DNA of 64,000 nt, taken from NCBI RefSeq assembly GCF_009914755.1, contig NC_060932.1; one strand, 5' to 3'. Below, piece after piece: positions 64 to 63,044 of this stretch (positions are counted from its first letter, which is position 1; each line of letters begins with the position of its first letter). Position numbers and translations under genes: made by a program. This DNA is from the human T2T-CHM13v2.0 reference genome, Homo sapiens. The notes under the pieces are model-generated. The model made no database searches. It was not told the DNA's origin and saw only the letters and a list, made by a program, of their open reading frames with translations.

Positions 64-2091
64 CTAAGGACAGGCCAGGGCGGCGGGAGAGGCGGACCGG
101 TGGCGTGGCTGGATCTGGGCGCGCTGTCGGACCTTCCACATCACCAGCTGCAGGCAGGCGTTTGCGTCCTCGCTGGAGTTGTGGCCGTCCTGGCTGTCCT
201 GGATGATCTGTGCCAGGTAGTCGGCCGCGAGATTCCTGAGGGAGCGCTTGTAGGGGAAACCCAGGTAGTGCGGGAAGAGCACGGCCGTGTCCACCACGGT
301 GCTGTGGATGAGCTTCAGGGCCAGCAGGTCGCTCTCCAGGCTGTGCCCGATGAGGATGGTTTGGGCGCTGAAAAAGCTCAGCAGGATGGCTTGGACTTGG
401 GGCAACGTGATGCTCGTCTTGGCGACGTCGGCCTCGGTGACTCCGGAAAACCTGGTGTTGTAGTCCACGATCTCGTTGTCGGGCTTGACGAAGGTGTCGT
501 ACACCACTCGCATGTCGGCGTCCACCACGGTGACGCGGGTCAGCTCTAGGCCATGCGTGGTGTAGCACATCTCACAGTCCAAGGCGTAGATTCCTGGATA
601 AGCGTCTCTGGACAACTCTTTCTTGAAGGTCTCCACGAAGCCATCGAGGCTCTCCTTGCGGCCGTCCCGCACGTGCTGCTTTGCCACCTGGCAGCCCACA
701 GAGCCAGGAGCAGCTGCACAGCAGGTGTACTGGCTAACCCGGCCTCCAGCCACCTGGCTCGAGCGGACCCGCCCCCAGTGATAATAACACAACTGGTCGC
801 GTACACAGCGGCCCGAGGAGGACACCAGGTACTCGGTGCCACAACGGCAGCAGACCCTGCAGGAGGAGTCGCCGGGCCCCTTCCCCTGGCCAGTGAAGAG
901 GACGGCGCCTCCGGGCCGCTCGGGGTGCGGGAAGGGGTAGCCGTTCTCCTTGAGCTGGTCCTGGGTGAGCAGGAACTCCTGGAGGCGGCTGTACAGGGCG
1001 GCCCTGCTGAGGCCGGGCATGGAGCTGGGGGTCAGGCCCTTCAGTCTCTTGAGGGTGTTCAGGACCACGTTCAGGTACCTGTTCTTGTTGGGGCTGCAGT
1101 CGTAGGCCACCTTCTCCTCGTTCAGCGCCTTCTCCTCGGCCTCCTGCTTGGAGGCGCAGAACTTGAGACACTCTTCGGTGAACAGTTGGAGATAGCCTCG
1201 GCGGAGGACGGTGGGGACTTGGCACCCAGAGCTTCGGAGGATAATGGGTTTCTTCAAACTCAAACTCGGTAAGGATGCACGACGGACGATTCGCTTAGAG
1301 CTGGTGGTGGCGGTGGTCTTGCATGCCATCCCTGACCTGTTGCGCGTCTTCCCTGGCTGTCTGCCGACCTTGGAGCCACGGGAGCGTTGGCTGCTGCTGG
1401 CCACCCGGGTTCTCTTGGCATCTGTGTAACCTGTGACCAAGCAAGGGCTGGAAGAGTGGGCGATCGTCTTCCTCTTCCTGGGGGCTGAGATGCGGACTCC
1501 CGAGGGCCTCTCTGTCAGCCTTGGGGCGGCTGGCAAGCGGCAGGCCGATCCCCTCTGCGCAGGGAAGTAGCACGACTCCGTCACCATCTTGGGCCACGCT
1601 GGGGGCACCGCCGGACCCCTGTTCTGGGGCTCCGCCTGGATGTCCACAAATGCTGAGGCCTGCTTGTGCATCTGGGGCACCCAGAGCCCGAAGCTCTGGG
1701 CAGGCTGATGAGAGGGCAGTGGGAATTCTGGAGCCTCGAGGGCCGCCTCCTCGGCCACCTTCTTAGCTTCTGGGTATCCAGGTGGGAACCAGCAGGGAGC
1801 TGTGGCTCGCAACATCTTGCTGCCTTCGGGAGCACCGGCCGGGCTCTGCTCCGCTCCCAAATGGCGGCTTGCCTCCGGGGCCGCCTCCTTGGCCACCTTC
1901 TTAGCTTCTGGGTATCCAGGGCGGAACCAGCAGGGAGCTGTGGCTCGCAACATCTTGCTGCCTTCGGGAGCACCGGCCTGGCTCTGCTCCCCTCCCAAAT
2001 GGCGGCTTGCCTCCAGGGCCGCCTCCTCGGCCACCTTCTTAGCTTCTGGGTATCCAGGGGGGAACCAGCAGGGAGCTGTGGCTCGCAACAT
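64..2091 (-). CDS. REXO1L1P: REXO1-like (GOR) DEDDh 3'-5' exonuclease, 675 aa, intronless retrogene, copy 1
   Basis: The ORF-track start at 2136 is TTG; the first ATG is 2091-2089 (AAGATGT, A at -3) and the stop is TAG at 66-64. ExoI ALDCEM, Exo[10 protein letters not shown] and Exo[11 protein letters not shown] are present, as is the REXO1-type Cys/His region (CCRCG...CYYHWG...YTCC). The exact paralog number cannot be assigned. Confidence 0.93.
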
Positions 2092-2146
2092 CTTGCTGCC
2101 TTCGGGAGCACCGGCCTGGCTCTGCTCCTCTCCCAACTGGCGGCTT
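1733..2146 (-). repeat. 3 x 138-bp tandem repeat (46-aa unit) spanning the 5'UTR and N-terminus, copy 1
   Basis: CAT(ATG) at 2089, 1951 and 1813, 138 bp apart; span is exactly 414 bp. Confidence 0.97.
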
Positions 2147-2149
2147 CAA

Positions 2150-3518: not shown

Positions 3519-3576
3519 CTTGCCTTGCTTGGAAAGATGAGAGAAAGTCTCCTTGCCTTGTTTGGACAGATGAGAG
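3511..3576. repeat. 2 x 33-bp tandem duplication at the HSMAR2 3' breakpoint (all full units)
   Basis: aaagtctccttgccttgcttggaaagatgagag followed by aaagtctccttgccttgtttggacagatgagag. Confidence 0.9.
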
Positions 3577-3784
3577 ATGAGATCCTCCTCTTCTCTCCCA
3601 GGACAGAATGGTGAGACTTGAGTTTCCTTTCTCCTCACTCTTCTCCTCCTTGAGGGAGCTGCTGTGCCGGACAGACCTGCCCCCGTGTCTAGACACTGGT
3701 AGACTCGTTTAAGTTCCTCACAGGCAATCCTCCATGGGGTCAAAGTGGAAGGACTTATTTCTTCAGGGCTCAGTAGTCCACATC

Positions 3785-5920: not shown

Positions 5921-5956
5921 ATTTCTATAAAATAAATTAGTTGAATTAGAATTGTT

Positions 5957-8017: not shown

Positions 8018-11000
8018 CGTTTTCCATTTTTTTTTAAATTATACTTTAATTACTAGGGTACATGTGCACAACGTGCAGGTTTATTACGTATGTAAGCACG
8101 TGCCATGTTGGTGTGCTGCACCCATTCACTAGTCATTTACATTAGGTATATCTCTTAATGTTATCCCTCCCCCTCCCCCCGCCCATGACAGGCCCCGGTG
8201 TGTGATGTTCCCCTTTCTGCGTCCAAGTGTTCTCCTAGTTCAATTCCCACCTATGAGTGGGATCACGCGGTGTTTGGTTTTTTTGTCCTTGCGATAGTTT
8301 GCTAAGAATGATGGTTTCCAGCTTCATCCGTGTCCCTCCGAAGGGCATGAACACATGCTTTTTTATGGCTGCATAGTATTCCACGGTGTATTTGTGCCAC
8401 GTTTCCTTAATCCAGTCTATCATTGATGGACATCTGGGCTGGTTCCAAGTCTTTGCTACTGTGAACGGTGCCGCAATAAACATACGTCTGCGTGTGTCCT
8501 TTTAGCAGCATGATTTATAGTCCTATGGGTGTATACCCAGTAATGGGACGGCTGGGTCAAATGGTATTTCTAATTCTAGATCCTTGAGGATTCGCCACAC
8601 TATCTTCCACAACCGCTGAACTGGTTTACAGTCCCACCAGCAGTGTAAAAGTGTCCCTATTACTCCACTACCTCTCCAGCACCTGTTGTTTCCTGACTTT
8701 TTTATTGATCGCTATTCTAACTGGTGTGAGACGATATCTCTTTGCGGATTTGATTTGCATTTCTCTGATGACCAGTGTTGATGAGCATTTTTTCATGTGT
8801 CTGTTGGCTGCATAAATGTCTTCTTTTTAGAAGTGTCTCTTCATATCCTTCCCGCACTTGTTGATGGGGTTGTTTGGTTTTTCTTGTAACTCTGTTTGAG
8901 TTCTTAGTAGATTCTGGATATTAGCCCTTTGTCAGATGAGTAGATTGCAAAAATTTTCTCCCTTTCTGTAGCATGCCTGTTCACTCTGATGGGAGTTTCT
9001 TTAGCTGTGCAGAAACTCTTTAGTGTAATTAGATGCCGTTTGTCAATATTGGCTTTTGTTGCCTTTGCTTTTGGCGTTTTAGACATGAGGTCCTTGCCCA
9101 TGCCTATGTCCTGAATGGTATTGCCTAGGTTTTCTCCTAGGGTTTGTATGGCTTAAGATGTAACATTTAAGTCTTTCATCCGTCTTGAATAAACTTTTGT
9201 ATAAGGTGTAAGGAAGGGATCCAATTTCACCTTCGGACATATGGCTAGCCAGTTTTCCCAGCACCATTTATTAAATAGGGAATCCTTTCCCCATTTCTTG
9301 TTTTTGTCAGGTTTGTCAAAGATCCGACGGTTGTAGATGTGTCGTATTATTTCTGAGGGCTCTATTCTGTTCCATTGGTCTACAGTAACCAAAAAAAGGC
9401 AACCAACAGCATGCTGTTTGGTTACTGTAGGCTTGTAGTGTAGTTTGAAGTCGGGTAGCTTGATGCCTCCACCTTTGTTCTTTTGGCTTAGGATTATCTT
9501 GGCAGTGGGGGCCCTTTTGTGGTTCCATGTAAACTTTCAAGTAGTTTTTTCCAATTCTGTGAAGAAAGTCCTTGGTAGCTTGATGGGGATGGCATTGGAT
9601 CTATAATATACCTTGGGCAGTGTGGCCATTTTCACGATACTGATTCTTCCTAACCGTGAGCATGGAATATTCTTCCATTGGTTTGTGTCCTCTTTTATTT
9701 CGTGGAGCAGTGATTTGTAGTTCTCCTTGAAGAGGTCCTTCGCACATCGCATCCCTTGTTAGTTGGATTCCTCAGAATTTTATTCTCTTTGAAGCAATTG
9801 TGAATGGGAGCTCAGTCATGATTTGGCTCTCTGTTTGCCTGTTATTGGTGTATGAGAATGCTTGTGTGTTTTGCACATCGATTTTGTATCCTGAGACTTT
9901 GCTGAAGTTGCTTATCAGCTTAAGGAGATTTTGGGCTGAGACGATGGGGTTTTCTAAATATTCAATCATGTCATCTACAAACAGGGACAATTTGACTTCC
10001 TCTTTTCCTAATTGATTACTCTTTATTTCTTTCTCCTGCCTGATTGCCCTGGCCAGAAGTTCCAACACTATGTTGAATACGAGTGGTGAGAGAGGGCACC
10101 CCTGTCTTGTGGCAGTTTGCAAAGGGAATGCTTCCACTTTTTGCCCATTCAGTATGATATTGGCTGTGGGTTTGCCCTAAATAGCCCTTATTATTTTGAG
10201 GTATGTCCCATCAGTACCTAATTTATTGAGAGTTTTTGGCATGAAAGGCTGTTGGATTTTGTCAAAGGCCTTTTCTGCATCTGTTGAGATAATCACGCGG
10301 TTTCTGTCTTTGGTTCCGATTATATGCTGGATTATGTTTATTGATTTGCATATGTTGGACCAGCCTTGCATGTCAGGGATGAAGCCCACTTGATCATAAT
10401 GGATAAGCTCTTTGATGTGCTGCTGGATTCGGTTTGCCAGCATTTTATGGAGGATTTTTCCATCGGTGTTCCTCAGGGATATGGGCCGAAAATTCTCTTT
10501 GTTGGTTGTGTCTCTCTCAGCCTTTGGGATCAGGATGATGCTGGCCTCATAAAATGAGATAGGGAGGATTCCCTCTTTTTCTGTTGATTGGAATAGTTTC
10601 CGAAGGAATGGTACCAGCTCCTCCTTGTACTTCTGGTAGAATTCGGCTGTGAATCCGTCTGGTCCTGGAGTTTTATTGCTTGATAGGCTATTAATTATTG
10701 CCTCAATTTCAGAGCCTGTTATTGGTCTATTCAGGCATTCAACTTCTTCCTGGTTTACTCTGGGGAGGTTGCATGTGTCCAGGAATTTATTCATTTCTTC
10801 TAGATTTCCGAGTTTGTTTGCCTAGAGGTGCTGACAGTATTCTCTCATGGTAGTTTGTACTTCTGTGGGATCAGTGGTGATATCCCCTTTATCATTTTTT
10901 ATTGCATCTGCTTGATTCTTCTTCCTTTCATTCTTTAATAGTGTTGCTAGTGGTCTATCAATTTTGTTGATGGTTTCAAAAAACCCGCTCCTGGATTCAT

Positions 11001-11825: not shown

Positions 11826-11938
11826 TGTGGTGCCTCTACAGAAAAAGAGGTAAGCAGGCATTCCGAAAGCTGGTGGGCCGGGGGGCTGGCCTTGTACTCA
11901 GAAGCCATGGAAGTCCCACGTGGGGTGGCTAGTGGTGT

Positions 11939-12140
11939 AAGGACAGAGGTCTCGGATGGGCAGAGGGATGTGGACAGGCGCGAGGGCGCGCGGCAGGGAC
12001 TCGGGGGACTGGGAGTGGCGGCTCGGGGCTGCGGGAGGCGATTGGTGGAAGGACAGAGGTCTGGGAGGGGCAGAGGGATGTGGACAGGCCCGAGGGGCCG
12101 CGGCAGGGATTCCGGGGGACCGGGAGTGGGGGGTTGGGGT
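11939..12140. repeat. ~2 x 110-bp G-rich tandem duplication downstream of each REXO1L stop (also 24129, 36319, 48508, 60700)
   Basis: aaggacagaggtct...ggcagagggatgtggacagg... starts at 11939 and again at 12049; dense GGG runs on the + strand. Confidence 0.9.
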
Positions 12141-12255
12141 TACTCTTGGCTTTTTGCCCTCTCCTGCCGCCGGCTGCTCCAGTTTCTTTCGCTTTGCGGC
12201 GAGGTGGGCAGGGTGAGCTCTCGGGACTGATGGCGGTTTTGGAAGAGGCCTGGGG

Positions 12256-14283
12256 CTAAGGACAGGCCAGGGCGGCGGGAGAGGCGGACCGGTGGCGTGG
12301 CTGGATCTGGGCGCGCTGTCGGACCTTCCACATCACCAGCTGCAGGCAGGCGTTTGCGTCCTCGCTGGAGTTGTGGCCGTCCTGGCTGTCCTGGATGATC
12401 TGTGCCAGGTAGTCGGCCGCGAGATTCCTGAGGGAGCGCTTGTAGGGGAAACCCAGGTAGTGCGGGAAGAGCACGGCCGTGTCCACCACGGTGCTGTGGA
12501 TGAGCTTCAGGGCCAGCAGGTCGCTCTCCAGGCTGTGCCCGATGAGGATGGTTTGGGCGCTGAAAAAGCTCAGCAGGATGGCTTGGACTTGGGGCAACGT
12601 GATGCTCGTCTTGGCGACGTCGGCCTCGGTGACTCCGGAAAACCTGGTGTTGTAGTCCACGATCTCGTTGTCGGGCTTGACGAAGGTGTCGTACACCACT
12701 CGCATGTCGGCGTCCACCACGGTGACGCGGGTCAGCTCTAGGCCATGCGTGGTGTAGCACATCTCACAGTCCAAGGCGTAGATTCCTGGATAAGCGTCTC
12801 TGGACAACTCTTTCTTGAAGGTCTCCACGAAGCCATCGAGGCTCTCCTTGCGGCCGTCCCGCACGTGCTGCTTTGCCACCTGGCAGCCCACAGAGCCAGG
12901 AGCAGCTGCACAGCAGGTGTACTGGCTAACCCGGCCTCCAGCCACCTGGCTCGAGCGGACCCGCCCCCAGTGATAATAACACAACTGGTCGCGTACACAG
13001 CGGCCCGAGGAGGACACCAGGTACTCGGTGCCACAACGGCAGCAGACCCTGCAGGAGGAGTCGCCGGGCCCCTTCCCCTGGCCAGTGAAGAGGACGGCGC
13101 CTCCGGGCCGCTCGGGGTGCGGGAAGGGGTAGCCGTTCTCCTTGAGCTGGTCCTGGGTGAGCAGGAACTCCTGGAGGCGGCTGTACAGGGCGGCCCTGCT
13201 GAGGCCGGGCATGGAGCTGGGGGTCAGGCCCTTCAGTCTCTTGAGGGTGTTCAGGACCACGTTCAGGTACCTGTTCTTGTTGGGGCTGCAGTCGTAGGCC
13301 ACCTTCTCCTCGTTCAGCGCCTTCTCCTCGGCCTCCTGCTTGGAGGCGCAGAACTTGAGACACTCTTCGGTGAACAGTTGGAGATAGCCTCGGCGGAGGA
13401 CGGTGGGGACTTGGCACCCAGAGCTTCGGAGGATAATGGGTTTCTTCAAACTCAAACTCGGTAAGGATGCACGACGGACGATTCGCTTAGAGCTGGTGGT
13501 GGCGGTGGTCTTGCATGCCATCCCTGACCTGTTGCGCGTCTTCCCTGGCTGTCTGCCGACCTTGGAGCCACGGGAGCGTTGGCTGCTGCTGGCCACCCGG
13601 GTTCTCTTGGCATCTGTGTAACCTGTGACCAAGCAAGGGCTGGAAGAGTGGGCGATCGTCTTCCTCTTCCTGGGGGCTGAGATGCGGACTCCCGAGGGCC
13701 TCTCTGTCAGCCTTGGGGCGGCTGGCAAGCGGCAGGCCGATCCCCTCTGCGCAGGGAAGTAGCACGACTCCGTCACCATCTTGGGCCACGCTGGGGGCAC
13801 CGCCGGACCCCTGTTCTGGGGCTCCGCCTGGATGTCCACAAATGCTGAGGCCTGCTTGTGCATCTGGGGCACCCAGAGCCCGAAGCTCTGGGCAGGCTGA
13901 TGAGAGGGCAGTGGGAATTCTGGAGCCTCGAGGGCCGCCTCCTCGGCCACCTTCTTAGCTTCTGGGTATCCAGGTGGGAACCAGCAGGGAGCTGTGGCTC
14001 GCAACATCTTGCTGCCTTCGGGAGCACCGGCCGGGCTCTGCTCCGCTCCCAAATGGCGGCTTGCCTCCGGGGCCGCCTCCTCGGCCACCTTCTTAGCTTC
14101 TGGGTATCCAGGGCGGAACCAGCAGGGAGCTGTGGCTCGCAACATCTTGCTGCCTTCGGGAGCACCGGCCTGGCTCTGCTCCCCTCCCAAATGGCGGCTT
14201 GCCTCCAGGGCCGCCTCCTCGGCCACCTTCTTAGCTTCTGGGTATCCAGGGGGGAACCAGCAGGGAGCTGTGGCTCGCAACAT
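12256..14283 (-). CDS. REXO1L1P: REXO1-like (GOR) exonuclease, 675 aa, copy 2
   Basis: Intact ORF; differs from copy 1 by K>E in the second 46-aa repeat (VAEEAAPEA, nt ~14082). Confidence 0.93.
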
Positions 14284-14338
14284 CTTGCTGCCTTCGGGAG
14301 CACCGGCCTGGCTCTGCTCCTCTCCCAACTGGCGGCTT
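13925..14338 (-). repeat. 3 x 138-bp repeat, copy 2
   Basis: Same as 1733-2146. Confidence 0.95.
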
Positions 14339-14341
14339 CAA

Positions 14342-14616
14342 TGAGTGCTGCGGCCGCCACTTGTCGCCTTTATATAGGCACAGGGCAGACTGGGTGGGAC
14401 TTCTCCTTGATAGGTTGGTGCTTCAGTCCAATCACACTGAGCCTCATCTTCCACCAGACTCCAGCTTGGGAATGCCTCAGGGGGTGCGCTAATGGAATCA
14501 ACTGGAACTCCCGGTTGCTAAACTTGGAGCTAGGTTGCTTTTCCTGAGTTAAGTAACTGTCCCTGCAGGGCAGTCCTATAATGGCTACTGGAATTGGGCT
14601 ACCTAGGATTAAATTA
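14342..14616 (-). promoter_or_regulatory. Putative promoter, copy 2
   Basis: TATA, CCAAT and DUX4-type motifs identical to unit 1. Confidence 0.7.
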
Positions 14617-14821
14617 AGGTTCAGGGAGGTTGGTCAACTTGCTTGGGCCCACACAGCACCCCTTGGAGCCAGGACTGGGCCAGCAGTCTGCTGCATGCTG
14701 GAGGGCGGGATCCCTCTGGGGCTGCCTTTCCCTGCTCTGTGCACTCCGCCGCTGCGGGCAAATTGAGGACAGGAAGCGGACCGCACCCACTTCTCTCCCA
14801 GGACTTGGGCAATGTTCAACA

Positions 14822-15710
14822 CAGGTGGTCTTCCAAAGGTTCATAGAAAATGCACATGGTGAAGAAACTATGCATGGATTTCCACTGGTGTGCACTAAAA
14901 TAAACTTGTCCTAACTTCTGATAACCTTTCTGAACTAGATCTAGTTTGAGGCACTAAGAAGGATGAGACATCCACTGAAAAGGACTCCCATCAGAGCAAC
15001 ATGAATTCCACGAAAATTGCAGCAAGAGGAAACATCAAATTTATGGTGAAGCTTGGGTGGAAGATTGAAGAAATCATTGACGTTTTAAGAAAAGCTTGTA
15101 AGGACACTACCCCAAAGAAATGAACTCTTTACGAATGTATAGCTTGTTTCAAGAAGAGGTGAGAAGATGTGGAAGATGAATCCTGCAGTGGCTGTGAAAA
15201 CCACTGTGCCCAGATGAGCTGCAGTTACGACGAGAGCTATCAGTGGAAATTTTAAACAGGAGGGATCACGATCCTGACTCATCCCTCTGACAAATTGTAA
15301 GCGGCAGTTGGAACATGGCTTCACCAATATGATCGCCAAGGCAAAGCATCATGAAAGCGATGGCTACCAAGAGGTGGCAGTGGTCCAGTCAAAGGAAAAG
15401 GAGGCCAGTCAGGAGCCCACATCATGGCATCAGTGTTTTGGGACACTCAAGGCATTTTGCTTGTTGACTTTCTGAAAGGCCAAACATCTGCTTATTAGGA
15501 GAGTGTTCTGAGAAGCTTAGATAAAGCTTTGGTAGAAACATGCTGGGAAAGTCTCACTAGATCCTTGTTCACCACATCAATGCTCTGCTCATTCCTCTCA
15601 TCAAACAAGGGCAATTTTGTCAGTTTCAATGGGCAGTCCTTAGGAATTCACCTTACGGGCTGCTTTCATTCCTTCTAAATTCTTTTTGTTTCCTAATGAT
15701 AAAAAGTCTC
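14822..15710 (+). mobile_element. HSMAR2 remnant, unit 2
   Basis: Copy of 2630-3518. Confidence 0.88.
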
Positions 15711-18148
15711 CTTGCCTTGCTTGGAAAGATGAGAGAAAGTCTCCTTGCCTTGTTTGGACAGATGAGAGATGAGATCCTCCTCTTCTCTCCCAGGACAGAA
15801 TGGTGAGACTTGAGTTTCCTTTCTCCTCACTCTTCTCCTCCTTGAGGGAGCTGCTGTGCCGGACAGACCTGCCCCCGTGTCTAGACACTGGTAGACTCGT
15901 TTAAGTTCCTCACAGGCAATCCTCCATGGGGTCAAAGTGGAAGGACTTATTTCTTCAGGGCTCAGTAGTCCACATCCTGGCGCGCACCTTCACCAGCCCA
16001 GGGCGGGGTAGAGGAGGGTGAAAGGGCGTGGCTCAGAGCCCGCTTCTTCCGCTCGGGCGTATCCTGGGAGGAACCCTTGTCCGGTGAGCATGTCTTCGTC
16101 TCTACCAAATTCCCTAGTGGGACATTTCTGGCAGCCCTACTTGTTCAGCAGCTTACGGGGGTCAGGTGGACCTCTGCTAGTCACCAGCCTGAAGCCCTTT
16201 CTCCATTTCAGCTATTTTGGCAGTTGCCTAGGTGACTTTTGAACCTCATTATCCAGAACAGCAAACGGACGAGGGGTGAGAAGAGTGGCCGTCTGGGTTT
16301 GCAGCATAGTGCTGCCTTCTAGGAGTTGTGCAGTCTTCGATTGTGTGAAACTTCACCTGGCTGATTTGTGGCAATGCCTCCACAAATTCGCTAAATTCAG
16401 TAGCTTTTGCCTTCCAAGATTCATTTACACAATGTTGAATGCTTTAAAGGAATGAGCATGAAGAGTGCTGGGCTGGAAAGTGATGAGATGGGTGGTAGGG
16501 ACTCCTCGGAGTAGAGGAGTAGAGTTTTACTATTATGACTAGGAGGCAAATAAAAAGAAGCTGAACGTGATCCATAATAAAAGAAGCACACACTCACAGA
16601 GCTCCATACCAACTACATTAAAATGGAAATCATGATATTTGGAAATACAACTTAATTGGAAATCATTAAGTAATCTCATCAACCTTTTTACAGTGGGTGG
16701 CAGGGCTATGGAGGGAAAACAGCAATGGTTCTGGCACCTACTTAACTTGATTCCATTAAATTCACCCAACAGGCCTCCAGAGAAGATATTACTGCTTTGA
16801 TATTACAAAGGGAAAAACAGCTATGGCGTCTCTGAAAAGCGCAACGTGCTAGGACTGGAATGACTTTAAAACCACACATAAATTTCTGAGAGATTTTTGC
16901 CATAAGGTACCATCCACCTTACTGTAAACCACATCCTAAAATTGTCTGCAGTGCAAATGGATTATGTGCATCCAACAGGAAACAGCATAGGTTGAGAAGC
17001 TGTTACTTAATAGCTTCATTGTCACCACGAGTGTAAAGTGTGGGGTCTCATCACTTTTGCACCCACGTTTTGCCTGTTGGTTTCTCCACACTGTCAGGAG
17101 CATTTGACCAACTCACTGTGGCTCAGGGTCCCTTACGCAGCCTGTTGGGGAAACCAGTGGGTATTGAAGACCTGCCTCTGGTGTGCCAGGAGGTTGTGCC
17201 TGCCGGCCACTCTGACTTGCGATCTTCCGCCTCAGTGTATGGCTTCCTACACCTGGGTAATTAACATTGCCAGCATGATAAGGAGGTCCTTTCATCACTA
17301 TTGCCACTAGTCCTTCCGACTCCTGTGCCCTGTTTCTCCTTTATTGGAACCCAAGAACGAGTAAACATAGCATTTTCAAACATCCCGCCCCCTTCCCTGG
17401 TAACACCAATATTCCACCATCCTAATTCCCTCACAAGCATTCAGTCTCTCCACCCTGAGGTGGTGAAATCCCTGCAGGCATTTATAAGTATACCTGGACA
17501 GAAGAAATACAAGATACCGTTCTATTAACTCAATGTAGTGTTGCTAAGTTCGTACTTTTGCTTGGTTTATTTTATTTTATAAATAGGTATCACTCGCATG
17601 GTTCCAAATGCGATAGGCACAGAGAGTATATATGATGGAATTACATCCTCCTTCCCTGCACTCAGCAACCGAGATCTTCCCGCTACGGGCACTCAAAGGT
17701 TTCATTGTCTGAAATATCAGCCTAAACGTAGTTTATGTTTAGGAAGCAACAACCGTAAATAGGCCCACATCCAAACGGAGTGGATTTAGGTTTCACTTTT
17801 TCAAGGAAAAACCATCAAAGAATTTTTCCACATACTTATAAACCATCCCACGTATAGAATCCATTTTTACTGACACAAATTTAGTACCAATAAACGACTC
17901 TTCTTCTCAATTTGTTTTATTTAACAATAAGTCTTGAACGTCATTCCCAGTTAACATTTTGAAGAGTTTCCTCTCTTTCGTTATGTTTTAGCTGCAAAGT
18001 ATTCTTCCGTAAGGATGAACGTACTATAATTTATTAGCCAGCCACTTAGTGATGTACAATTAAGCAGTTTTAAATCTTTGACTCTTGGAAATATTGTTTC
18101 TCACACATAAATATTTCTATAAAATAAATTAGTTGAATTAGAATTGTT

Positions 18149-36635: not shown

Positions 36636-38663
36636 CTAAGGACAGGCCAGGGCGGCGGGAGAGGCGGACCGGTGGCGTGGCTGGATCTGGGCGCGCTGTC
36701 GGACCTTCCACATCACCAGCTGCAGGCAGGCGTTTGCGTCCTCGCTGGAGTTGTGGCCGTCCTGGCTGTCCTGGATGATCTGTGCCAGGTAGTCGGCCGC
36801 GAGATTCCTGAGGGAGCGCTTGTAGGGGAAACCCAGGTAGTGCGGGAAGAGCACGGCCGTGTCCACCACGGTGCTGTGGATGAGCTTCAGGGCCAGCAGG
36901 TCGCTCTCCAGGCTGTGCCCGATGAGGATGGTTTGGGCGCTGAAAAAGCTCAGCAGGATGGCTTGGACTTGGGGCAACGTGATGCTCGTCTTGGCGACGT
37001 CGGCCTCGGTGACTCCGGAAAACCTGGTGTTGTAGTCCACGATCTCGTTGTCGGGCTTGACGAAGGTGTCGTACACCACTCGCATGTCGGCGTCCACCAC
37101 GGTGACGCGGGTCAGCTCTAGGCCATGCGTGGTGTAGCACATCTCACAGTCCAAGGCGTAGATTCCTGGATAAGCGTCTCTGGACAACTCTTTCTTGAAG
37201 GTCTCCACGAAGCCATCGAGGCTCTCCTTGCGGCCGTCCCGCACGTGCTGCTTTGCCACCTGGCAGCCCACAGAGCCAGGAGCAGCTGCACAGCAGGTGT
37301 ACTGGCTAACCCGGCCTCCAGCCACCTGGCTCGAGCGGACCCGCCCCCAGTGATAATAACACAACTGGTCGCGTACACAGCGGCCCGAGGAGGACACCAG
37401 GTACTCGGTGCCACAACGGCAGCAGACCCTGCAGGAGGAGTCGCCGGGCCCCTTCCCCTGGCCAGTGAAGAGGACGGCGCCTCCGGGCCGCTCGGGGTGC
37501 GGGAAGGGGTAGCCGTTCTCCTTGAGCTGGTCCTGGGTGAGCAGGAACTCCTGGAGGCGGCTGTACAGGGCGGCCCTGCTGAGGCAGGGCATGGAGCTGG
37601 GGGTCAGGCCCTTCAGTCTCTTGAGGGTGTTCAGGACCACGTTCAGGTACCTGTTCTTGTTGGGGCTGCAGTCGTAGGCCACCTTCTCCTCGTTCAGCGC
37701 CTTCTCCTCGGCCTCCTGCTTGGAGGCGCAGAACTTGAGACACTCTTCGGTGAACAGTTGGAGATAGCCTCGGCGGAGGACGGTGGGGACTTGGCACCCA
37801 GAGCTTCGGAGGATAATGGGTTTCTTCAAACTCAAACTCGGTAAGGATGCACGACGGACGATTCGCTTAGAGCTGGTGGTGGCGGTGGTCTTGCATGCCA
37901 TCCCTGACCTGTTGCGCGTCTTCCCTGGCTGTCTGCCGACCTTGGAGCCACGGGAGCGTTGGCTGCTGCTGGCCACCCGGGTTCTCTTGGCATCTGTGTA
38001 ACCTGTGACCAAGCAAGGGCTGGAAGAGTGGGCGATCGTCTTCCTCTTCCTGGGGGCTGAGATGCGGACTCCCGAGGGCCTCTCTGTCAGCCTTGGGGCG
38101 GCTGGCAAGCGGCAGGCCGATCCCCTCTGCGCAGGGAAGTAGCACGACTCCGTCACCATCTTGGGCCACGCTGGGGGCACCGCCGGACCCCTGTTCTGGG
38201 GCTCCGCCTGGATGTCCACAAATGCTGAGGCCTGCTTGTGCATCTGGGGCACCCAGAGCCCGAAGCTCTGGGCAGGCTGATGAGAGGGCAGTGGGAATTC
38301 TGGAGCCTCGAGGGCCGCCTCCTCGGCCACCTTCTTAGCTTCTGGGTATCCAGGTGGGAACCAGCAGGGAGCTGTGGCTCGCAACATCTTGCTGCCTTCG
38401 GGAGCACCGGCCGGGCTCTGCTCCGCTCCCAAATGGCGGCTTGCCTCCGGGGCCGCCTCCTTGGCCACCTTCTTAGCTTCTGGGTATCCAGGGCGGAACC
38501 AGCAGGGAGCTGTGGCTCGCAACATCTTGCTGCCTTCGGGAGCACCGGCCTGGCTCTGCTCCCCTCCCAAATGGCGGCTTGCCTCCAGGGCCGCCTCCTC
38601 GGCCACCTTCTTAGCTTCTGGGTATCCAGGGGGGAACCAGCAGGGAGCTGTGGCTCGCAACAT
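36636..38663 (-). CDS. REXO1L1P: REXO1-like (GOR) exonuclease, 675 aa, copy 4
   Basis: Intact ORF; one G>C change (SMPCLSR, nt ~37586). Confidence 0.93.
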
Positions 38664-48824: not shown

Positions 48825-50852
48825 CTAAGGACAGGCCAGGGCGGCGGGAGAGGCGGACCGGTGGCGTGGCTGGATCTGGGCGCGCTGTCGGACCTTCCAC
48901 ATCACCAGCTGCAGGCAGGCGTTTGCGTCCTCGCTGGAGTTGTGGCCGTCCTGGCTGTCCTGGATGATCTGTGCCAGGTAGTCGGCCGCGAGATTCCTGA
49001 GGGAGCGCTTGTAGGGGAAACCCAGGTAGTGCGGGAAGAGCACGGCCGTGTCCACCACGGTGCTGTGGATGAGCTTCAGGGCCAGCAGGTCGCTCTCCAG
49101 GCTGTGCCCGATGAGGATGGTTTGGGCGCTGAAAAAGCTCAGCAGGATGGCTTGGACTTGGGGCAACGTGATGCTCGTCTTGGCGACGTCGGCCTCGGTG
49201 ACTCCGGAAAACCTGGTGTTGTAGTCCACGATCTCGTTGTCGGGCTTGACGAAGGTGTCGTACACCACTCGCATGTCGGCGTCCACCACGGTGACGCGGG
49301 TCAGCTCTAGGCCATGCGTGGTGTAGCACATCTCACAGTCCAAGGCGTAGATTCCTGGATAAGCGTCTCTGGACAACTCTTTCTTGAAGGTCTCCACGAA
49401 GCCATCGAGGCTCTCCTTGCGGCCGTCCCGCACGTGCTGCTTTGCCACCTGGCAGCCCACAGAGCCAGGAGCAGCTGCACAGCAGGTGTACTGGCTAACC
49501 CGGCCTCCAGCCACCTGGCTCGAGCGGACCCGCCCCCAGTGATAATAACACAACTGGTCGCGTACACAGCGGCCCGAGGAGGACACCAGGTACTCGGTGC
49601 CACAACGGCAGCAGACCCTGCAGGAGGAGTCGCCGGGCCCCTTCCCCTGGCCAGTGAAGAGGACGGCGCCTCCGGGCCGCTCGGGGTGCGGGAAGGGGTA
49701 GCCGTTCTCCTTGAGCTGGTCCTGGGTGAGCAGGAACTCCTGGAGGCGGCTGTACAGGGCGGCCCTGCTGAGGCCGGGCATGGAGCTGGGGGTCAGGCCC
49801 TTCAGTCTCTTGAGGGTGTTCAGGACCACGTTCAGGTACCTGTTCTTGTTGGGGCTGCAGTCGTAGGCCACCTTCTCCTCGTTCAGCGCCTTCTCCTCGG
49901 CCTCCTGCTTGGAGGCGCAGAACTTGAGACACTCTTCGGTGAACAGTTGGAGATAGCCTCGGCGGAGGACGGTGGGGACTTGGCACCCAGAGCTTCGGAG
50001 GATAATGGGTTTCTTCAAACTCAAACTCGGTAAGGATGGACGACGGACGATTCGCTTAGAGCTGGTGGTGGCGGTGGTCTTGCATGCCATCCCTGACCTG
50101 TTGCGCGTCTTCCCTGGCTGTCTGCCGACCTTGGAGCCACGGGAGCGTTGGCTGCTGCTGGCCACCCGGGTTCTCTTGGCATCTGTGTAACCTGTGACCA
50201 AGCAAGGGCTGGAAGAGTGGGCGATCGTCTTCCTCTTCCTGGGGGCTGAGATGCGGACTCCCGAGGGCCTCTCTGTCAGCCTTGGGGCGGCTGGCAAGCG
50301 GCAGGCTGATCCCCTCTGCGCAGGGAAGTAGCACGACTCCGTCACCATCTTGGGCCACGCTGGGGGCACCGCCGGACCCCTGTTCTGGGGCTCCGCCTGG
50401 ATGTCCACAAATGCTGAGGCCTGCTTGTGCATCTGGGGCACCCAGAGCCCGAAGCTCTGGGCAGGCTGATGAGAGGGCAGTGGGAATTCTGGAGCCTCGA
50501 GGGCCGCCTCCTCGGCCACCTTCTTAGCTTCTGGGTATCCAGGTGGGAACCAGCAGGGAGCTGTGGCTCGCAACATCTTGCTGCCTTCGGGAGCACCGGC
50601 CGGGCTCTGCTCCGCTCCCAAATGGCGGCTTGCCTCCGGGGCCGCCTCCTTGGCCACCTTCTTAGCTTCTGGGTATCCAGGGCGGAACCAGCAGGGAGCT
50701 GTGGCTCGCAACATCTTGCTGCCTTCGGGAGCACCGGCCTGGCTCTGCTCCCCTCCCAAATGGCGGCTTGCCTCCAGGGCCGCCTCCTCGGCCACCTTCT
50801 TAGCTTCTGGGTATCCAGGGGGGAACCAGCAGGGAGCTGTGGCTCGCAACAT
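48825..50852 (-). CDS. REXO1L1P: REXO1-like (GOR) exonuclease, 675 aa, copy 5
   Basis: Intact ORF; A>P (VRRPSLP, nt ~50039) plus one synonymous change (~50307). Confidence 0.93.
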
Positions 50853-50907
50853 CTTGCTGCCTTCGGGAGCACCGGCCTGGCTCTGCTCCTCTCCCAACTG
50901 GCGGCTT
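50494..50907 (-). repeat. 3 x 138-bp repeat, copy 5
   Basis: Same as 1733-2146. Confidence 0.95.
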
Positions 50908-59700: not shown

Positions 59701-60452
59701 AGTCTTGCTAGTGGTCTATCAATTTTGTTGATGGTTTCAAAAAACCCGCTCCTGGATTCATTGATTTTTTGAAGGGTTTTTTGGGTCTCTATCTCCTTCA
59801 GTTCTGCTCGGATCTTAGTTATTTCTTGCCTTCTGCTAGCTTTTGAATGTGTTTGCTCTTGCTTCTCTCATCCTTTTAATGGTGATGTTAGGGTATGCAT
59901 TTTTGATCTTTCCTGCTTTCCCTTGTGGGCGTTTAGTGCTATAAATTTCCCTCTACACACTGCTTAAAATGTGTCCCAGAGATTCTGGTATGTTGTGTCT
60001 TTGTTCTCATTGCTTTCAGAGAATATCTTTATTTCTGCCTTCATTTCGTTATGTACCCAGTACTCATTCAGGAACAGCTTGTCCGGTTTCCATGCAGTTG
60101 TGCGGTTTTGAGTGAGTTTCTCAATGCTGAGGTCTAGTGTGATTGCAATGTGGTCTGAGAGACCGTTTGTAATAATTTCTGTTATTTTACTTTTACTGAG
60201 GAGTGCTTTACTTCCAACTATGTGGTCAATGTGGAAATAAGTGTGATGTGGTGCTGAGAAGAATGTATATTCTGTTGATTTGGGGTGGAGCGTTCTGTAC
60301 ATGTCTCCTAGGTCCGCTTGGTGCAGAGCTGAGCTCAATTCCCGGATATCCTTTTTTAACTTTCTGTCTCGTTGGTGTGTCTAATGTTGACAGTGGGGTG
60401 TTAAGTTTGCCATTATTATTATTATTACTATGTGGGAGTCTAAGTCTCTTTT
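56779..60452 (-). mobile_element. 5'-truncated L1PA, unit 5
   Basis: Copy of 8018-11691 with the same TSD. Confidence 0.97.
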
Positions 60453-61016
60453 GATCACACTTTAAAGACCAAAAGGTAGAAGCGCAAAGACGTTATCTGT
60501 CCAATATTACAAACCTAGTAAGTGGTGGAATTTGGCCTTGAACCCAGATCTGTAACTCCAGAGCCGAAGTGCTTCACCCACCTCCCTGTGGTGCCTCTAC
60601 AGAAAAAGAGGTAAGCAGGCATTCCGAAAGCTGGTGGGCCGGGGGGCTGGCCTTGTACTCAGAAGCCATGGAAGTCCCACGTGGGGTGGCTAGTGGTGTA
60701 AGGACAGAGGTCTCGGATGGGCAGAGGGATGTGGACAGGCGCGAGGGCGCGCGGCAGGGACTCGGGGGACTGGGAGTGGCGGCTCGGGGCTGCGGGAGGC
60801 GATTGGTGGAAGGACAGAGGTCTGGGAGGGGCAGAGGGATGTGGACAGGCCCGAGGGGCCGCGGCAGGGATTCCGGGGGACCGGGAGTGGGGGGTTGGGG
60901 TTACTCTTGGCTTTTTGCCCTCTCCTGCCGCCGGCTGCTCCAGTTTCTTTCGCTTTGCGGCGAGGTGGGCAGGGTGAGCTCTCGGGACTGATGGCGGTTT
61001 TGGAAGAGGCCTGGGG

Positions 61017-63044
61017 CTAAGGACAGGCCAGGGCGGCGGGAGAGGCGGACCGGTGGCGTGGCTGGATCTGGGCGCGCTGTCGGACCTTCCACATCACCAG
61101 CTGCAGGCAGGCGTTTGCGTCCTCGCTGGAGTTGTGGCCGTCCTGGCTGTCCTGGATGATCTGTGCCAGGTAGTCGGCCGCGAGATTCCTGAGGGAGCGC
61201 TTGTAGGGGAAACCCAGGTAGTGCGGGAAGAGCACGGCCGTGTCCACCACGGTGCTGTGGATGAGCTTCAGGGCCAGCAGGTCGCTCTCCAGGCTGTGCC
61301 CGATGAGGATGGTTTGGGCGCTGAAAAAGCTCAGCAGGATGGCTTGGACTTGGGGCAACGTGATGCTCGTCTTGGCGACGTCGGCCTCGGTGACTCCGGA
61401 AAACCTGGTGTTGTAGTCCACGATCTCGTTGTCGGGCTTGACGAAGGTGTCGTACACCACTCGCATGTCGGCGTCCACCACGGTGACGCGGGTCAGCTCT
61501 AGGCCATGCGTGGTGTAGCACATCTCACAGTCCAAGGCGTAGATTCCTGGATAAGCGTCTCTGGACAACTCTTTCTTGAAGGTCTCCACGAAGCCATCGA
61601 GGCTCTCCTTGCGGCCGTCCCGCACGTGCTGCTTTGCCACCTGGCAGCCCACAGAGCCAGGAGCAGCTGCACAGCAGGTGTACTGGCTAACCCGGCCTCC
61701 AGCCACCTGGCTCGAGCGGACCCGCCCCCAGTGATAATAACACAACTGGTCGCGTACACAGCGGCCCGAGGAGGACACCAGGTACTCGGTGCCACAACGG
61801 CAGCAGACCCTGCAGGAGGAGTCGCCGGGCCCCTTCCCCTGGCCAGTGAAGAGGACGGCGCCTCCAGGCCGCTCGGGGTGCGGGAAGGGGTAGCCGTTCT
61901 CCTTGAGCTGGTCCTGGGTGAGCAGGAACTCCTGGAGGCGGCTGTACAGGGCGGCCCTGCTGAGGCCGGGCATGGAGCTGGGGGTCAGGCCCTTCAGTCT
62001 CTTGAGGGTGTTCAGGACCACGTTCAGGTACCTGTTCTTGTTGGGGCTGCAGTCGTAGGCCACCTTCTCCTCGTTCAGCGCCTTCTCCTCGGCCTCCTGC
62101 TTGGAGGCGCAGAACTTGAGACACTCTTCGGTGAACAGTTGGAGATAGCCTCGGCGGAGGACGGTGGGGACTTGGCACCCAGAGCTTCGGAGGATAATGG
62201 GTTTCTTCAAACTCAAACTCGGTAAGGATGCACGACGGACGATTCGCTTAGAGCTGGTGGTGGCGGTGGTCTTGCATGCCATCCCTGACCTGTTGCGCGT
62301 CTTCCCTGGCTGTCTGCCGACCTTGGAGCCACGGGAGCGTTGGCTGCTGCTGGCCACCCGGGTTCTCTTGGCATCTGTGTAACCTGTGACCAAGCAAGGG
62401 CTGGAAGAGTGGGCGATCGTCTTCCTCTTCCTGGGGGCTGAGATGCGGACTCCCGAGGGCCTCTCTGTCAGCCTTGGGGCGGCTGGCAAGCGGCAGGCCG
62501 ATCCCCTCTGCGCAGGGAAGTAGCACGACTCCGTCACCATCTTGGGCCACGCTGGGGGCACCGCCGGACCCCTGTTCTGGGGCTCCGCCTGGATGTCCAC
62601 AAATGCTGAGGCCTGCTTGTGCATCTGGGGCACCCAGAGCCCGAAGCTCTGGGCAGGCTGATGAGAGGGCAGTGGGAATTCTGGAGCCTCGAGGGCCGCC
62701 TCCTCGGCCACCTTCTTAGCTTCTGGGTATCCAGGTGGGAACCAGCAGGGAGCTGTGGCTCGCAACATCTTGCTGCCTTCGGGAGCACCGGCCGGGCTCT
62801 GCTCCGCTCCCAAATGGCGGCTTGCCTCCGGGGCCGCCTCCTTGGCCACCTTCTTAGCTTCTGGGTATCCAGGGCGGAACCAGCAGGGAGCTGTGGCTCG
62901 CAACATCTTGCTGCCTTCGGGAGCACCGGCCTGGCTCTGCTCCCCTCCCAAATGGCGGCTTGCCTCCAGGGCCGCCTCCTCGGCCACCTTCTTAGCTTCT
63001 GGGTATCCAGGGGGGAACCAGCAGGGAGCTGTGGCTCGCAACAT
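61017..63044 (-). CDS. REXO1L1P: REXO1-like (GOR) exonuclease, 675 aa, copy 6
   Basis: Intact ORF; protein identical to copy 1, with one synonymous change (~61866). Confidence 0.93.

What the first reader, a model, noticed from the sequence alone, without database searches (positions are those of the whole stretch)
64..63044. A 'pseudogene' array in which all six copies encode an intact, catalytically complete DEDDh exonuclease
Seen: six 675-codon ORFs with no stop or frameshift. Each keeps ExoI (D-C-E), ExoII (D), ExoIII (H-x4-D), the Cys/His-rich REXO1 region and basic NLS-like patches (PRKRK, AKRTR). The neighbouring L1 and HSMAR2 frames are full of lesions. Known: REXO1L loci carry pseudogene (P) symbols, and the parent REXO1 is an Elongin A-binding nuclease. 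Inference: this is a dosage-amplified, probably protein-coding, primate retrogene family organised like DUX4/D4Z4, USP17L, TAF11L or ELOA3, with no established function.
Basis: partly seen in the sequence, partly recalled or inferred. Interest (0 to 1): 0.75.

Follow-up and report, generated by a model that had tools for sequence, protein, structure and literature searches.

The report
Known GOR/REXO1L1 exonuclease gene array
This is the well-known human 8q21.2 tandem array in which every 12.2-kb unit carries an intact copy of the GOR (REXO1L1) exonuclease gene, which looks selectively maintained rather than dead, although the array and the reading frame are already in print.

Summary
The window holds six 675-codon ORFs on the minus strand, 12,189-12,192 bp apart. 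All keep the DEDDh residues D505/E507, D588 and H637/D642.

The six copies differ at only 5 of 2,028 nt, so six intact frames count as one observation. Across the whole array, 72 of 72 copies are open.

The locus is already known as the 8q21.2 REXO1L1/GOR VNTR. GOR appears in print as a DEDDh enzyme with KIX, CHORD and DEDDh domains.

My analysis supports real constraint:
- The ORF is a 5'-truncated copy of REXO1 that lacks nine introns and retains one.
- It aligns to the parent over 385 codons with no gap, dN/dS about 0.3.
- The REXO1 exon remnant just upstream, of the same age, has 5 stops and frameshifts.
- Orthologous open frames exist in apes and New World monkeys.
- The exonuclease domain evolves about four times slower than the N-terminus.
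- A TATA box lies 84-93 nt before the ATG.

Not shown: translation or activity in humans. A pre-primate origin is likely but not proven. Novelty is low.

The parts
64..2091 (-). GOR/REXO1L1 ORF copy 1, 675 aa (stop codon at 64-66)
   Evidence: Identical in nucleotide sequence to copy 3.
12256..14283 (-). GOR ORF copy 2, 675 aa (K68E relative to the majority)
24446..26473 (-). GOR ORF copy 3, 675 aa (majority sequence)
36636..38663 (-). GOR ORF copy 4, 675 aa (G360C)
48825..50852 (-). GOR ORF copy 5, 675 aa (A272P plus one synonymous change)
61017..63044 (-). GOR ORF copy 6, 675 aa (one synonymous change)
13925..14338 (-). Three copies of a 138-bp tandem repeat, made of 55 nt of former 5'UTR plus the first 83 nt of coding sequence. 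It gives three in-frame ATGs and a 46-aa N-terminal triplication. The same repeat lies at 1733-2146, 26115-26528, 38305-38718, 50494-50907 and 62686-63099.
   Evidence: Chimpanzee, gorilla and gibbon proteins have one copy. Array copies with 2 or 1 repeats exist.
14367..14378 (-). TATA box (TATATAAAGG on the minus strand) 84-93 nt upstream of the first ATG, with no ATG in between. The same motif starts at 2175, 26557, 38747, 50936 and 63128.
   Evidence: Promoter activity is inferred, not shown.
14284..15707 (-). Region derived from a retained REXO1 intron, now 5' flank, promoter and 5'UTR. About 71% nt identity to the REXO1 intron over 422 nt.
15708..16138 (-). Decayed remnant of upstream REXO1 coding exons (REXO1 residues about 482-669). 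It has 5 stops in one frame, and the homology shifts through all three frames. Also at 3516-3946, 27898-28328, 40088-40518 and 52277-52707.
11932..12255 (-). In-frame open extension of 107 codons after the TAG stop. The chimpanzee protein reads through here, with W at the stop position.
9775..10821 (-). Broken L1 ORF2 reverse-transcriptase remnant. Two Pfam RVT_1 pieces are separated by a stop.

Best explanation
Each 12.2-kb unit of the known 8q21.2 macrosatellite carries one copy of GOR (REXO1L1). GOR is an old copy of the 3' half of REXO1 that is 5'-truncated and mostly processed.

Origin. The source transcript had lost nine downstream introns but kept one. An ATG inside that retained intron now opens the frame. 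The REXO1 exons upstream of it have decayed into non-coding flank that carries a TATA box.

Product. The frame encodes a Rex3/REXO1-type protein: a disordered basic N-terminus, a KIX/EloA-BP1 helical domain, a zinc-binding CHORD-like Cys/His domain, and a C-terminal DEDDh 3'-5' exonuclease with all five catalytic residues.

Selection. Relaxed purifying selection has kept the frame open through anthropoid evolution, strongest on the exonuclease domain. The gene was then amplified to tens or hundreds of near-identical copies per haplotype.

Inferred function. The most likely activity is 3'-end trimming or degradation of RNA polymerase II-associated or small stable RNAs, by analogy with yeast Rex3 and REXO1, in a restricted and still undefined expression context.

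Shown versus inferred. Shown here: the anatomy, the origin, residue conservation, the evolutionary rates and the intactness of all copies. Inferred: transcription from the TATA box, translation in humans, enzymatic activity, the substrate, and any benefit of high copy number.
For: - Intactness. 72 of 72 chr8 copies have no stop over residues 281-675. Open frames are 693 codons in 62 copies, 647 in 7, and 691, 601 and 599 in one each. In 264 kb read directly, 23 of 23 copies are intact.
- Origin. ORF residues 278-662 are collinear with 10 REXO1 exons on chr19. I found canonical GT-AG introns at all 9 junctions in the parent, and GOR lacks all nine.
- Parent comparison. 385 codons align with no gap, 82.6% nt and 77.4% aa identity. 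NG86 gives dN 0.137, dS 0.443, ratio 0.31; LWL85 gives 0.30.
- Retained intron. The N-terminus and at least 800 nt upstream match the REXO1 intron, including an in-frame ATG in the parent.
- Internal control of the same age. The upstream exon remnant has 5 stops and at least 2 frameshifts in about 143 codons.
- Chance of staying open. With substitutions only, P(no stop in 583 codons) is 0.037 at K=0.06 and 0.0003 at K=0.18.
- Orthologues. Open proteins exist in chimpanzee (96% identity), gorilla, gibbon and four New World monkeys (79%).
- Catalytic residues. They are kept in 18 of 19 GOR-like proteins.
- Domain rates, human versus New World monkeys. Identity is 91-92% in the exonuclease domain, 83-90% in CHORD, 82-84% in KIX and 61-64% in the N-terminus.
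- Site-class test. Changes avoid REXO1-invariant columns: 28% versus 46% in anthropoids (p=5e-5), and 2.4% versus 8.5% in human/chimpanzee/gorilla (p=0.004).
- Family. Pfam EloA-BP1 at 2e-38 and RNase_T at 33 bits against a cut-off of 24. Solved relatives are SDN1 (1e-28) and ISG20 (2e-16), with the catalytic motifs aligned.
- Variation between units. The ORF has 1 variant shared by two or more units, against 20 in the adjacent 1.86 kb of non-coding sequence of the same origin (p=6e-6).
- Literature, passages read. RT-PCR signal in cancer cell lines and after X-rays. One GOR-specific peptide with 1 spectrum match. GOR grouped with REXO1 and Rex3 by architecture.
Against: - Relaxed constraint. 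Of 87 differences from REXO1 in 385 sites, 67 fall on the GOR lineage, 8 on REXO1 and 12 are ambiguous. With a per-lineage neutral distance of about 0.18-0.22, that gives roughly 0.5-0.65 for the GOR branch. The ratio is my arithmetic.
- N-terminus. Its 280 residues change at about the rate of the decayed remnant.
- Weak site-class test inside domains. For residues 281-655, anthropoid p=0.011 and hominoid p=0.065. It is not significant within the exonuclease domain alone.
- Unstable estimates. YN00 and ML dS values (1.6-2.2) disagree with NG86.
- Recent loss not excluded. At human-chimpanzee depth a dead gene would still be open with P about 0.7.
- Methylation. The 3-kb ORF region is the methylated part of the unit in CHM13 cells.
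- Thin protein evidence. UniProt level PE5, with a single spectrum.
- Literature. Recent papers still call it a pseudogene.
- Variant depletion is not purely protein-level. It also removes synonymous variants, so gene conversion may explain it better than selection on the protein.
- One lineage lacks the catalytic histidine. Plecturocebus has L at that position.
- Structure model. My AlphaFold model was poor (mean pLDDT 51).
Confidence: 0.6

Rival explanations
1. The human array is now a protein-dead pseudogene family. The frame is open only because the units are very young, near-identical and GC-rich. Whatever constraint existed in ancestors ended recently.
For: - The six copies differ at 5 nt. 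Units differ from their consensus by 0-2 nt in the ORF.
- A dead L1 frame of 205 aa is likewise open in 20 units.
- P(no stop) is 0.71 at K=0.006.
- The ORF region is methylated in CHM13.
- Protein evidence is PE5 with one spectrum match.
- The human-specific triplication of the start region could be a neutral rearrangement.
- The 'P' symbols and the recent literature call it a pseudogene.
Against: - Changes among human, chimpanzee and gorilla still avoid REXO1-invariant columns: 2.4% versus 8.5%, p=0.004.
- All indels seen among the 72 copies are in frame: 138-bp repeat steps and one 6-bp deletion.
- The ORF is less variable than the adjacent sequence of the same origin.
- RT-PCR signal has been reported.
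Confidence: 0.22
2. What is maintained is the DNA array, not the protein. The array would serve as a chromatin or macrosatellite element, or as a source of non-coding RNA. ORF uniformity would then be a by-product of local gene conversion or GC-biased conversion in a GC-rich, CpG-rich segment.
For: - The depletion of shared variants covers the whole ORF plus the 350-nt GC-rich 3' flank, and includes synonymous sites. Shared variants number 1 in the ORF against 20 in the adjacent segment. ORF variants are 4 at third codon positions and 6 at first or second positions.
- The ORF has GC 0.59-0.68 and CpG observed/expected 0.43-0.92.
- The array is a recurrent neocentromere site with a sharply partitioned methylation pattern.
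Against: - Conversion among units cannot keep a frame open for tens of millions of years or across species.
- The upstream exon remnant in the same unit decayed.
- Catalytic residues are conserved, and rates differ by protein domain.
Confidence: 0.1
3. On origin only: GOR-like genes arose several times independently from the same intron-retaining REXO1 transcript. On this view the human gene is anthropoid-specific rather than boreoeutherian.
For: - No alignment column has a derived residue shared by 5 or more of 7 GOR-like lineages.
- A tree joining anthropoid GOR with primate REXO1 is not rejected (delta lnL 17, p-AU 0.161).
- The GOR-like branches are long, 0.3-0.39, so long-branch attraction is possible.
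- The parent locus itself carries the in-frame ATG and the shared N-terminal motif.
Against: - The ML tree groups all 19 GOR-like rows (SH-aLRT 97).
- The neutral distance between GOR and REXO1 is large: intron about 29% raw difference, NG86 dS 0.44.
- The anthropoid stem is about twice its crown depth.
- GOR keeps ancestral residues at 8 sites where primate REXO1 changed.
Confidence: 0.3

Closest known systems
REXO1L1/GOR 12.2-kb VNTR at 8q21.2 (Warburton 2008, Brahmachary 2014, Logsdon 2021)
   Same: This is that locus. The unit is 12.19 kb with one GOR gene per unit. CHM13 has about 71 units in blocks of alternating orientation. The Southern-blot probe printed in Logsdon 2021 lies just after the stop codon.
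   Different: Nothing structural differs. Those papers, in the passages I read, do not report the retained-intron origin, the decayed upstream exons as an internal control, or the ORF-specific lack of shared variants.
REXO1 (EloA-BP1) and yeast Rex3: KIX + CHORD + DEDDh exoribonucleases
   Same: GOR has the same C-terminal architecture and catalytic residues. Identity to human REXO1 is 77% over 385 residues with no gap. Daniels 2025 already groups GOR with REXO1 and Rex3.
   Different: GOR lacks the N-terminal roughly 600 residues of REXO1. It starts in a former intron, evolves about 8 times faster at the protein level (67 versus 8 polarised changes), has no introns in the coding region, and is multicopy. 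Binding to Elongin A or TFIIS was not shown here.
ORF-bearing macrosatellites (DUX4/D4Z4, USP17L, ELOA3/TCEB3C, CT47)
   Same: All are head-to-tail units, each with one intronless ORF, near-identical copies and extreme copy-number variation. ELOA3 in this genome has 12 copies at a 5.9-kb period, all open. Brahmachary 2014 shows REXO1L1 and TCEB3C both expanded in chimpanzee and gorilla.
   Different: GOR encodes an enzyme with a complete active site. Its expression context is unknown, whereas DUX4 has a defined embryonic role (recalled, not checked here).
ISG20 and plant SDN1: solved DEDDh RNases
   Same: These are the best solved-structure matches, SDN1 (5z9x) at 1e-28 and ISG20 (1wlj) at 2e-16. 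ExoI, ExoII and ExoIII are aligned residue for residue.
   Different: They share only the catalytic domain and have no KIX or CHORD.

Membership tests
DEDDh 3'-5' exonuclease superfamily (Pfam RNase_T PF00929) | ExoI motif D-x-E | tested here: met
   ALDCEM, D505/E507. Invariant in 19 of 19 GOR-like and 17 of 17 REXO1 rows. Aligned to the same motif of ISG20 and SDN1.
DEDDh 3'-5' exonuclease superfamily (Pfam RNase_T PF00929) | ExoII aspartate | tested here: met
   [10 protein letters not shown]588. Invariant in all 36 rows.
DEDDh 3'-5' exonuclease superfamily (Pfam RNase_T PF00929) | ExoIII H-x4-D | tested here: met
   GHNSSED, H637 and D642. H is kept in 18 of 19 GOR-like rows (Plecturocebus has L). 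D is kept in all.
DEDDh 3'-5' exonuclease superfamily (Pfam RNase_T PF00929) | Profile match above the curated cut-off | tested here: met
   33.1 bits against a cut-off of 24, E=1e-7, when residues 480-675 are scanned alone. The family was not listed in the whole-protein scan at E<=0.01.
DEDDh 3'-5' exonuclease superfamily (Pfam RNase_T PF00929) | Exonuclease activity | not testable with these tools
   Needs recombinant protein, wild type against an ExoI mutant.
Rex3/REXO1 subfamily | KIX / EloA-BP1 domain upstream of the nuclease | tested here: met
   Pfam PF15870, E=2e-38, 132 bits against a cut-off of 27. The architecture is described for GOR in Daniels 2025 (passages).
Rex3/REXO1 subfamily | Single CHORD-like Cys/His domain next to the DEDDh domain | tested here: met
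   C414, C415, C417, C435, H438, C457, C458, C467 and H473 are invariant in 37 rows. The fold itself was not confirmed, because my model was poor.
Rex3/REXO1 subfamily | Binding to the N-terminal domain of Elongin A / TFIIS | not testable with these tools
   Reported for REXO1 only. No usable result was obtained here.
Processed retrogene | Parental introns absent | tested here: inconclusive
   9 of 9 introns downstream of the start are absent, and an upstream intron is also spliced out in the remnant. One intron is retained, so the copy is semi-processed.
Processed retrogene | Poly(A) tract and target-site duplications | not tested
   I saw no AATAAA or poly(A) tract in the 700 nt after the stop. 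No systematic search was made.
Pseudogene (disabled copy) | Stop codon, frameshift or loss of essential residues | tested here: not met
   0 of 72 copies carry a stop in residues 281-675. 23 of 23 full ORFs read directly are intact. Catalytic residues are present.
ORF-bearing macrosatellite | Head-to-tail units of several kb, each with one ORF, highly identical, copy-number polymorphic | tested here: met
   Polymorphism comes from the literature.

The most novel reading that the evidence does not exclude
GOR is a working, TATA-driven protein-coding gene that has been misfiled as a pseudogene family. It would encode an N-terminally truncated REXO1/Rex3-type exoribonuclease born from an intron-retaining transcript. 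It would be kept by selection from at least the anthropoid ancestor, and probably from early placental mammals. In apes it would be amplified to hundreds of copies because dosage matters in a short germline, early-embryo or stress window, possibly alongside the co-expanded Elongin A paralogue array ELOA3. The near absence of shared variants in the ORF would then reflect selection or directed conversion acting on the coding part of a macrosatellite.
Probability: 0.35. Interest if true: 0.55.

Novelty: already known. Interest (0 to 1): 0.3.

Why it matters
If GOR is translated, humans carry roughly 100-250 diploid copies of an active RNA exonuclease gene that reference annotation labels inconsistently. 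Identical sequences are called pseudogene, full-length coding, 318-aa coding, or left unannotated.

That has several consequences:
- It would affect how RNA-seq, proteomics and copy-number studies treat 8q21.2.
- It bears on the old observation of anti-GOR autoantibodies in hepatitis C.
- It would add an enzyme to the small set of ORF-bearing macrosatellites.

The retained-intron origin with a decayed upstream half gives a clean internal control for selection that could be reused for other arrays. The basic facts are published, so the gain is a better argument rather than a discovery.

Tried and rejected
- **Fetching the whole 850-kb array.** I used the whole-genome protein search instead.
- **Tyson 2014.** Not held.
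- **AlphaFold2 of residues 397-675 with a 37-row alignment.** Mean pLDDT 51 and pTM 0.46. This is too poor for a fold search, so none was run. Fold assignment rests on sequence matches to solved structures.
- **Complex prediction, GOR (583 aa) with the ELOA3 N-terminal 110 residues.** The queue was full four times. The job then ran and gave no verdict. It counts neither for nor against binding.
- **Rfam scan of two units.** 0 matches.
- **HSMAR2.** No transposase hit.
- **Synapomorphy search for a single origin.** 0 columns.
- **AU test.** It does not reject a primate-only origin.
- **YN00 and ML dN/dS.** dS was 1.6-2.2, which I regard as unstable for this GC-rich pair.
- **Literature searches that found no evolutionary or expression study of GOR.** 'REXO1L'+'embryo' (19 papers), 'REXO1L'+'testis' (5), 'exonuclease GOR' (6) and 'REXO1'+'retrogene' (2). 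Supplementary tables were not searched and may hold expression values.

Full report
**1. The observation**

The window holds exactly six ORFs of 250 aa or more. They are spaced 12,189-12,192 bp apart.

Each ORF begins with three copies of a 138-bp repeat, equal to 46 codons.

The six ORFs differ at only five nucleotide positions. Three are nonsynonymous (K68E, A272P, G360C) and two are synonymous. Copies 1 and 3 are identical.

- ALDCEM (D505, E507)
- GHSLESDLL (D588)
- GHNSSED (H637, D642)
- a Cys/His block
- PRKRK and AKRTR

The neighbouring L1 ORF2 is broken by stops. I could not confirm HSMAR2.

**2. Six copies are one observation**

Near-identity makes the six frames non-independent. A dead 205-aa L1 ORF2 frame is also open in 20 units of the 264 kb that I read.

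I fetched 200 kb of flanks. In the resulting 264 kb, 23 of 23 copies are intact:
- 21 copies of 675 aa, of which 13 are identical in protein to copy 1 and 8 have one change
- one copy of 673 aa
- one copy of 629 aa, which has one 46-aa repeat fewer

A whole-genome protein search with residues 281-675 found 72 chr8 copies. None has a stop inside the match. The stop-to-stop frames are 693 codons in 62 copies, 647 in 7, and 691, 601 and 599 in one each. Fifty-five copies scored identically to the query. All length variants are in frame.

The annotation labels do not follow sequence. Copies 1 and 3, identical to each other, are called pseudogenes. Copy 2 differs by one nucleotide and is called protein-coding. 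Copy 4 has no annotation (with the hub's gene table).

**3. The locus is known**

Logsdon 2021 (passages read) describes this 863-kb VNTR:
- a 12.192-kb unit, with 67 full and 7 partial units
- the 'REXO1L1 (GOR) pseudogene' in each unit
- methylation confined to the 3-kb gene part
- neocentromere formation at this site

Other papers cover the same array:
- Warburton 2008 lists 'Gor1' once per unit.
- Brahmachary 2014 reports 108-266 diploid copies in humans, about 550 in chimpanzee, 400-860 in gorilla and 22 in macaque. It calls the function unknown.
- D'Apice 2015 calls GOR a DEDDh exonuclease and reports RT-PCR signal in cancer lines and after irradiation.
- Daniels 2025 groups human REXO1 and GOR with yeast Rex3 by a KIX + CHORD + DEDDh architecture.
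- A melanoma proteomics paper lists UniProt Q8IX06 (protein-evidence level PE5) with one peptide and one spectrum match. That peptide occurs in this ORF.

**4. Origin**

The parent gene REXO1 lies on chr19. ORF residues 274-661 are collinear with ten REXO1 exons at 77-87% nt identity.

I found canonical GT-AG introns at all nine junctions in the parent, and GOR lacks all nine.

The GOR N-terminus is not REXO1 exon sequence. It matches the last roughly 180 nt of the REXO1 intron that precedes the exon beginning VEPPRRGP. The parent carries an in-frame ATG there, followed by a similar peptide. Nucleotide homology to that intron continues for at least 800 nt upstream of the GOR ATG, at 71% over 422 nt.

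Further upstream each unit holds a remnant of REXO1 residues about 482-669. An earlier intron has been spliced out of this remnant. It is disabled by five stops in one frame, a 1-nt deletion, a 5-nt insertion and a small duplication, so the homology runs through all three frames.

GOR is therefore a 5'-truncated, mostly processed copy of an intron-retaining REXO1 transcript. Only the part downstream of the intronic ATG has stayed open.

A TATA box (TATATAAAGG) lies 84-93 nt before the first ATG in all six copies, with no intervening ATG. Its use as a promoter is inferred.

The 138-bp repeat is 55 nt of former 5'UTR plus 83 nt of coding sequence. The chimpanzee, gorilla and gibbon proteins have one copy. 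Copies at the array edges also have one.

**5. Evidence for constraint**

- **Parent comparison.** GOR and human REXO1 align over 385 codons with no gap, at 82.6% nt and 77.4% aa identity. NG86 gives dN 0.137 and dS 0.443, ratio 0.31. LWL85 gives 0.30. YN00 and ML gave much larger dS.
- **Polarised changes.** With Atlantogenata REXO1 as outgroup, 67 changes fall on the GOR lineage, 8 on REXO1 and 12 are ambiguous. With a per-lineage neutral distance of about 0.18-0.22, taken from the intron and from dS, the GOR branch ratio is roughly 0.5-0.65 overall and about 0.35 in the exonuclease domain. This is my arithmetic. Constraint is relaxed but real.
- **Chance of staying open.** A substitution-only simulation gives P(no stop in 583 codons) = 0.037 at K=0.06 and 0.0003 at K=0.18. 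The upstream remnant shows what neutral decay did at this very locus.
- **Orthologues.** Open orthologous proteins exist in chimpanzee (96%), gorilla (95%), gibbon (91%), an unnamed source (87%) and four New World monkeys (79%).
- **Catalytic residues.** They are kept in 18 of 19 GOR-like proteins.
- **Domain rates, human versus New World monkeys.** Identity is 61-64% in the N-terminus, 82-84% in KIX, 83-90% in CHORD and 91-92% in the exonuclease domain.
- **Site-class test.** Changes avoid columns that are invariant in REXO1:

| Group | Changed at REXO1-invariant columns | Changed at variable columns | p |
|---|---|---|---|
| Anthropoids | 28% | 46% | 5e-5 |
| Hominoids | 5.5% | 15.4% | 5e-4 |
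| Human/chimpanzee/gorilla | 2.4% | 8.5% | 0.004 |

Restricted to residues 281-655 the effect is weaker (p = 0.011 for anthropoids, 0.022 for catarrhines, 0.065 for hominoids). Within the exonuclease domain alone it is not significant.

**6. Variation among units**

I aligned 20 full units. The ORF has 10 variable columns (4.9 per kb) against 195 (19.2 per kb) in the rest of the unit. Mean pairwise differences are 0.54 per kb against 4.7 per kb.

Variants shared by two or more units number 1 in the ORF against 108 elsewhere (p=1e-7). Singletons number 9 against 87 (p=0.055).

Against the adjacent 1.86 kb of non-coding sequence of the same origin, shared variants are 1 against 20 (p=6e-6).

Synonymous variants are missing too. 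Of the ORF variants, 4 are at third codon positions and 6 at first or second positions. Protein-level selection alone does not explain this. Local gene conversion or a recent sweep of one ORF haplotype are alternatives. I leave this unexplained.

**7. Age**

The ML tree groups 19 GOR-like proteins (SH-aLRT 97) inside eutherian REXO1. They come from anthropoids, mouse lemur, galago, slow loris, hare, beaver, squirrel and bats. The anthropoid stem is about twice the crown depth.

Against a single origin:
- No column shows a derived residue shared by five or more of seven lineages.
- The branches are long.
- A tree with anthropoid GOR next to primate REXO1 is not rejected (delta lnL 17, p-AU 0.161).

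The gene is at least as old as the human-New World monkey ancestor. A boreoeutherian origin is likely but unproven.

**8. Function**

By family, the best guess is an RNA 3'-end trimming or degrading enzyme:
- Pfam EloA-BP1 and RNase_T both match.
- The solved relatives are SDN1 and ISG20.
- Rex3 processes RNase MRP RNA, and REXO1 associates with Elongin A and paused polymerase II.

GOR lacks the N-terminal half of REXO1. Nothing here shows activity, partners or expression.

**9. Verdict**

The interpretation that the array is probably protein-coding is reasonable and is now better supported. 'Six intact copies' is not the evidence for it, and the retrogene is neither cleanly processed nor clearly primate-specific. 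The array and its DEDDh ORF are already published.

Noticed in passing
window 12256-12258 and 11932-12255 (minus strand); the same in copies 3-6: After the TAG stop the frame stays open for 107 more codons, ending at the same SLHH-stop in all five copies checked. The chimpanzee protein P0002 has W at the stop position and reads through this stretch, which holds the peptide GRRGQKAKSNPNRPL. I recall that peptide as the GOR47-1 autoantibody epitope; the label is recalled and not from a call. Gorilla and four New World monkeys stop where human does. Gibbon and an unnamed 87% relative read on.
   Followed up: partly
L022 (chr19 REXO1 intron), about 180 nt before the exon that begins VEPPRRGP: The parent gene has an in-frame ATG in its intron, followed by a peptide like the GOR N-terminus. 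Two transcript-derived proteins that cluster with REXO1 (P0015, P0019) are short forms of 616-621 aa, and P0015 starts with a GOR-like N-terminus. REXO1 may itself make a short, intron-initiated or intron-retaining isoform.
   Followed up: partly
window 10177-10794 (minus strand) and the same place in other units: A 205-aa ATG-initiated open frame from the dead L1 ORF2 is preserved in 20 units of the 264 kb examined. It serves as a control showing that unit identity alone keeps frames open.
   Followed up: yes
20 aligned units, chr8:86107066-86350725: The ORF and the 350-nt GC-rich 3' flank almost lack variants shared between units, 1 and 0 respectively. The adjacent 1.86 kb has 20 and the remainder 88. 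Synonymous sites are depleted too, so the cause is unclear.
   Followed up: partly
chr8:86081494 and 86944354 (array edges); seven internal copies, e.g. 86143637: Copies at both array edges have the shortest frames (599 and 601 codons, consistent with one N-terminal repeat). Seven copies have two repeats. This suggests the triplication spread from within the array.
   Followed up: no
chr18:47153767-47219054 (L023 is one unit): The ELOA3 array has 12 copies at a 5.9-kb period, all with open 590-codon frames. The 546-aa ORF has a TFIIS-N/Med26 domain and an Elongin_A domain. Brahmachary 2014 reports that this array and the GOR array are both largest in chimpanzee and gorilla.
   Followed up: partly
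chr7:55504518-55505000 and chr9:27257949-27258074: Other REXO1-like fragments in the genome are degraded. The chr7 fragment is 40% identical with 3 stops, and the chr9 fragment has 1 stop. This is the expected fate of unconstrained copies.
   Followed up: no
window, gene table against sequence: The RefSeq T2T annotation gives identical or near-identical units four different treatments: pseudogene, 675-aa coding, 318-aa coding (just outside the window at 73209-74165) and no annotation (copy 4).
   Followed up: yes
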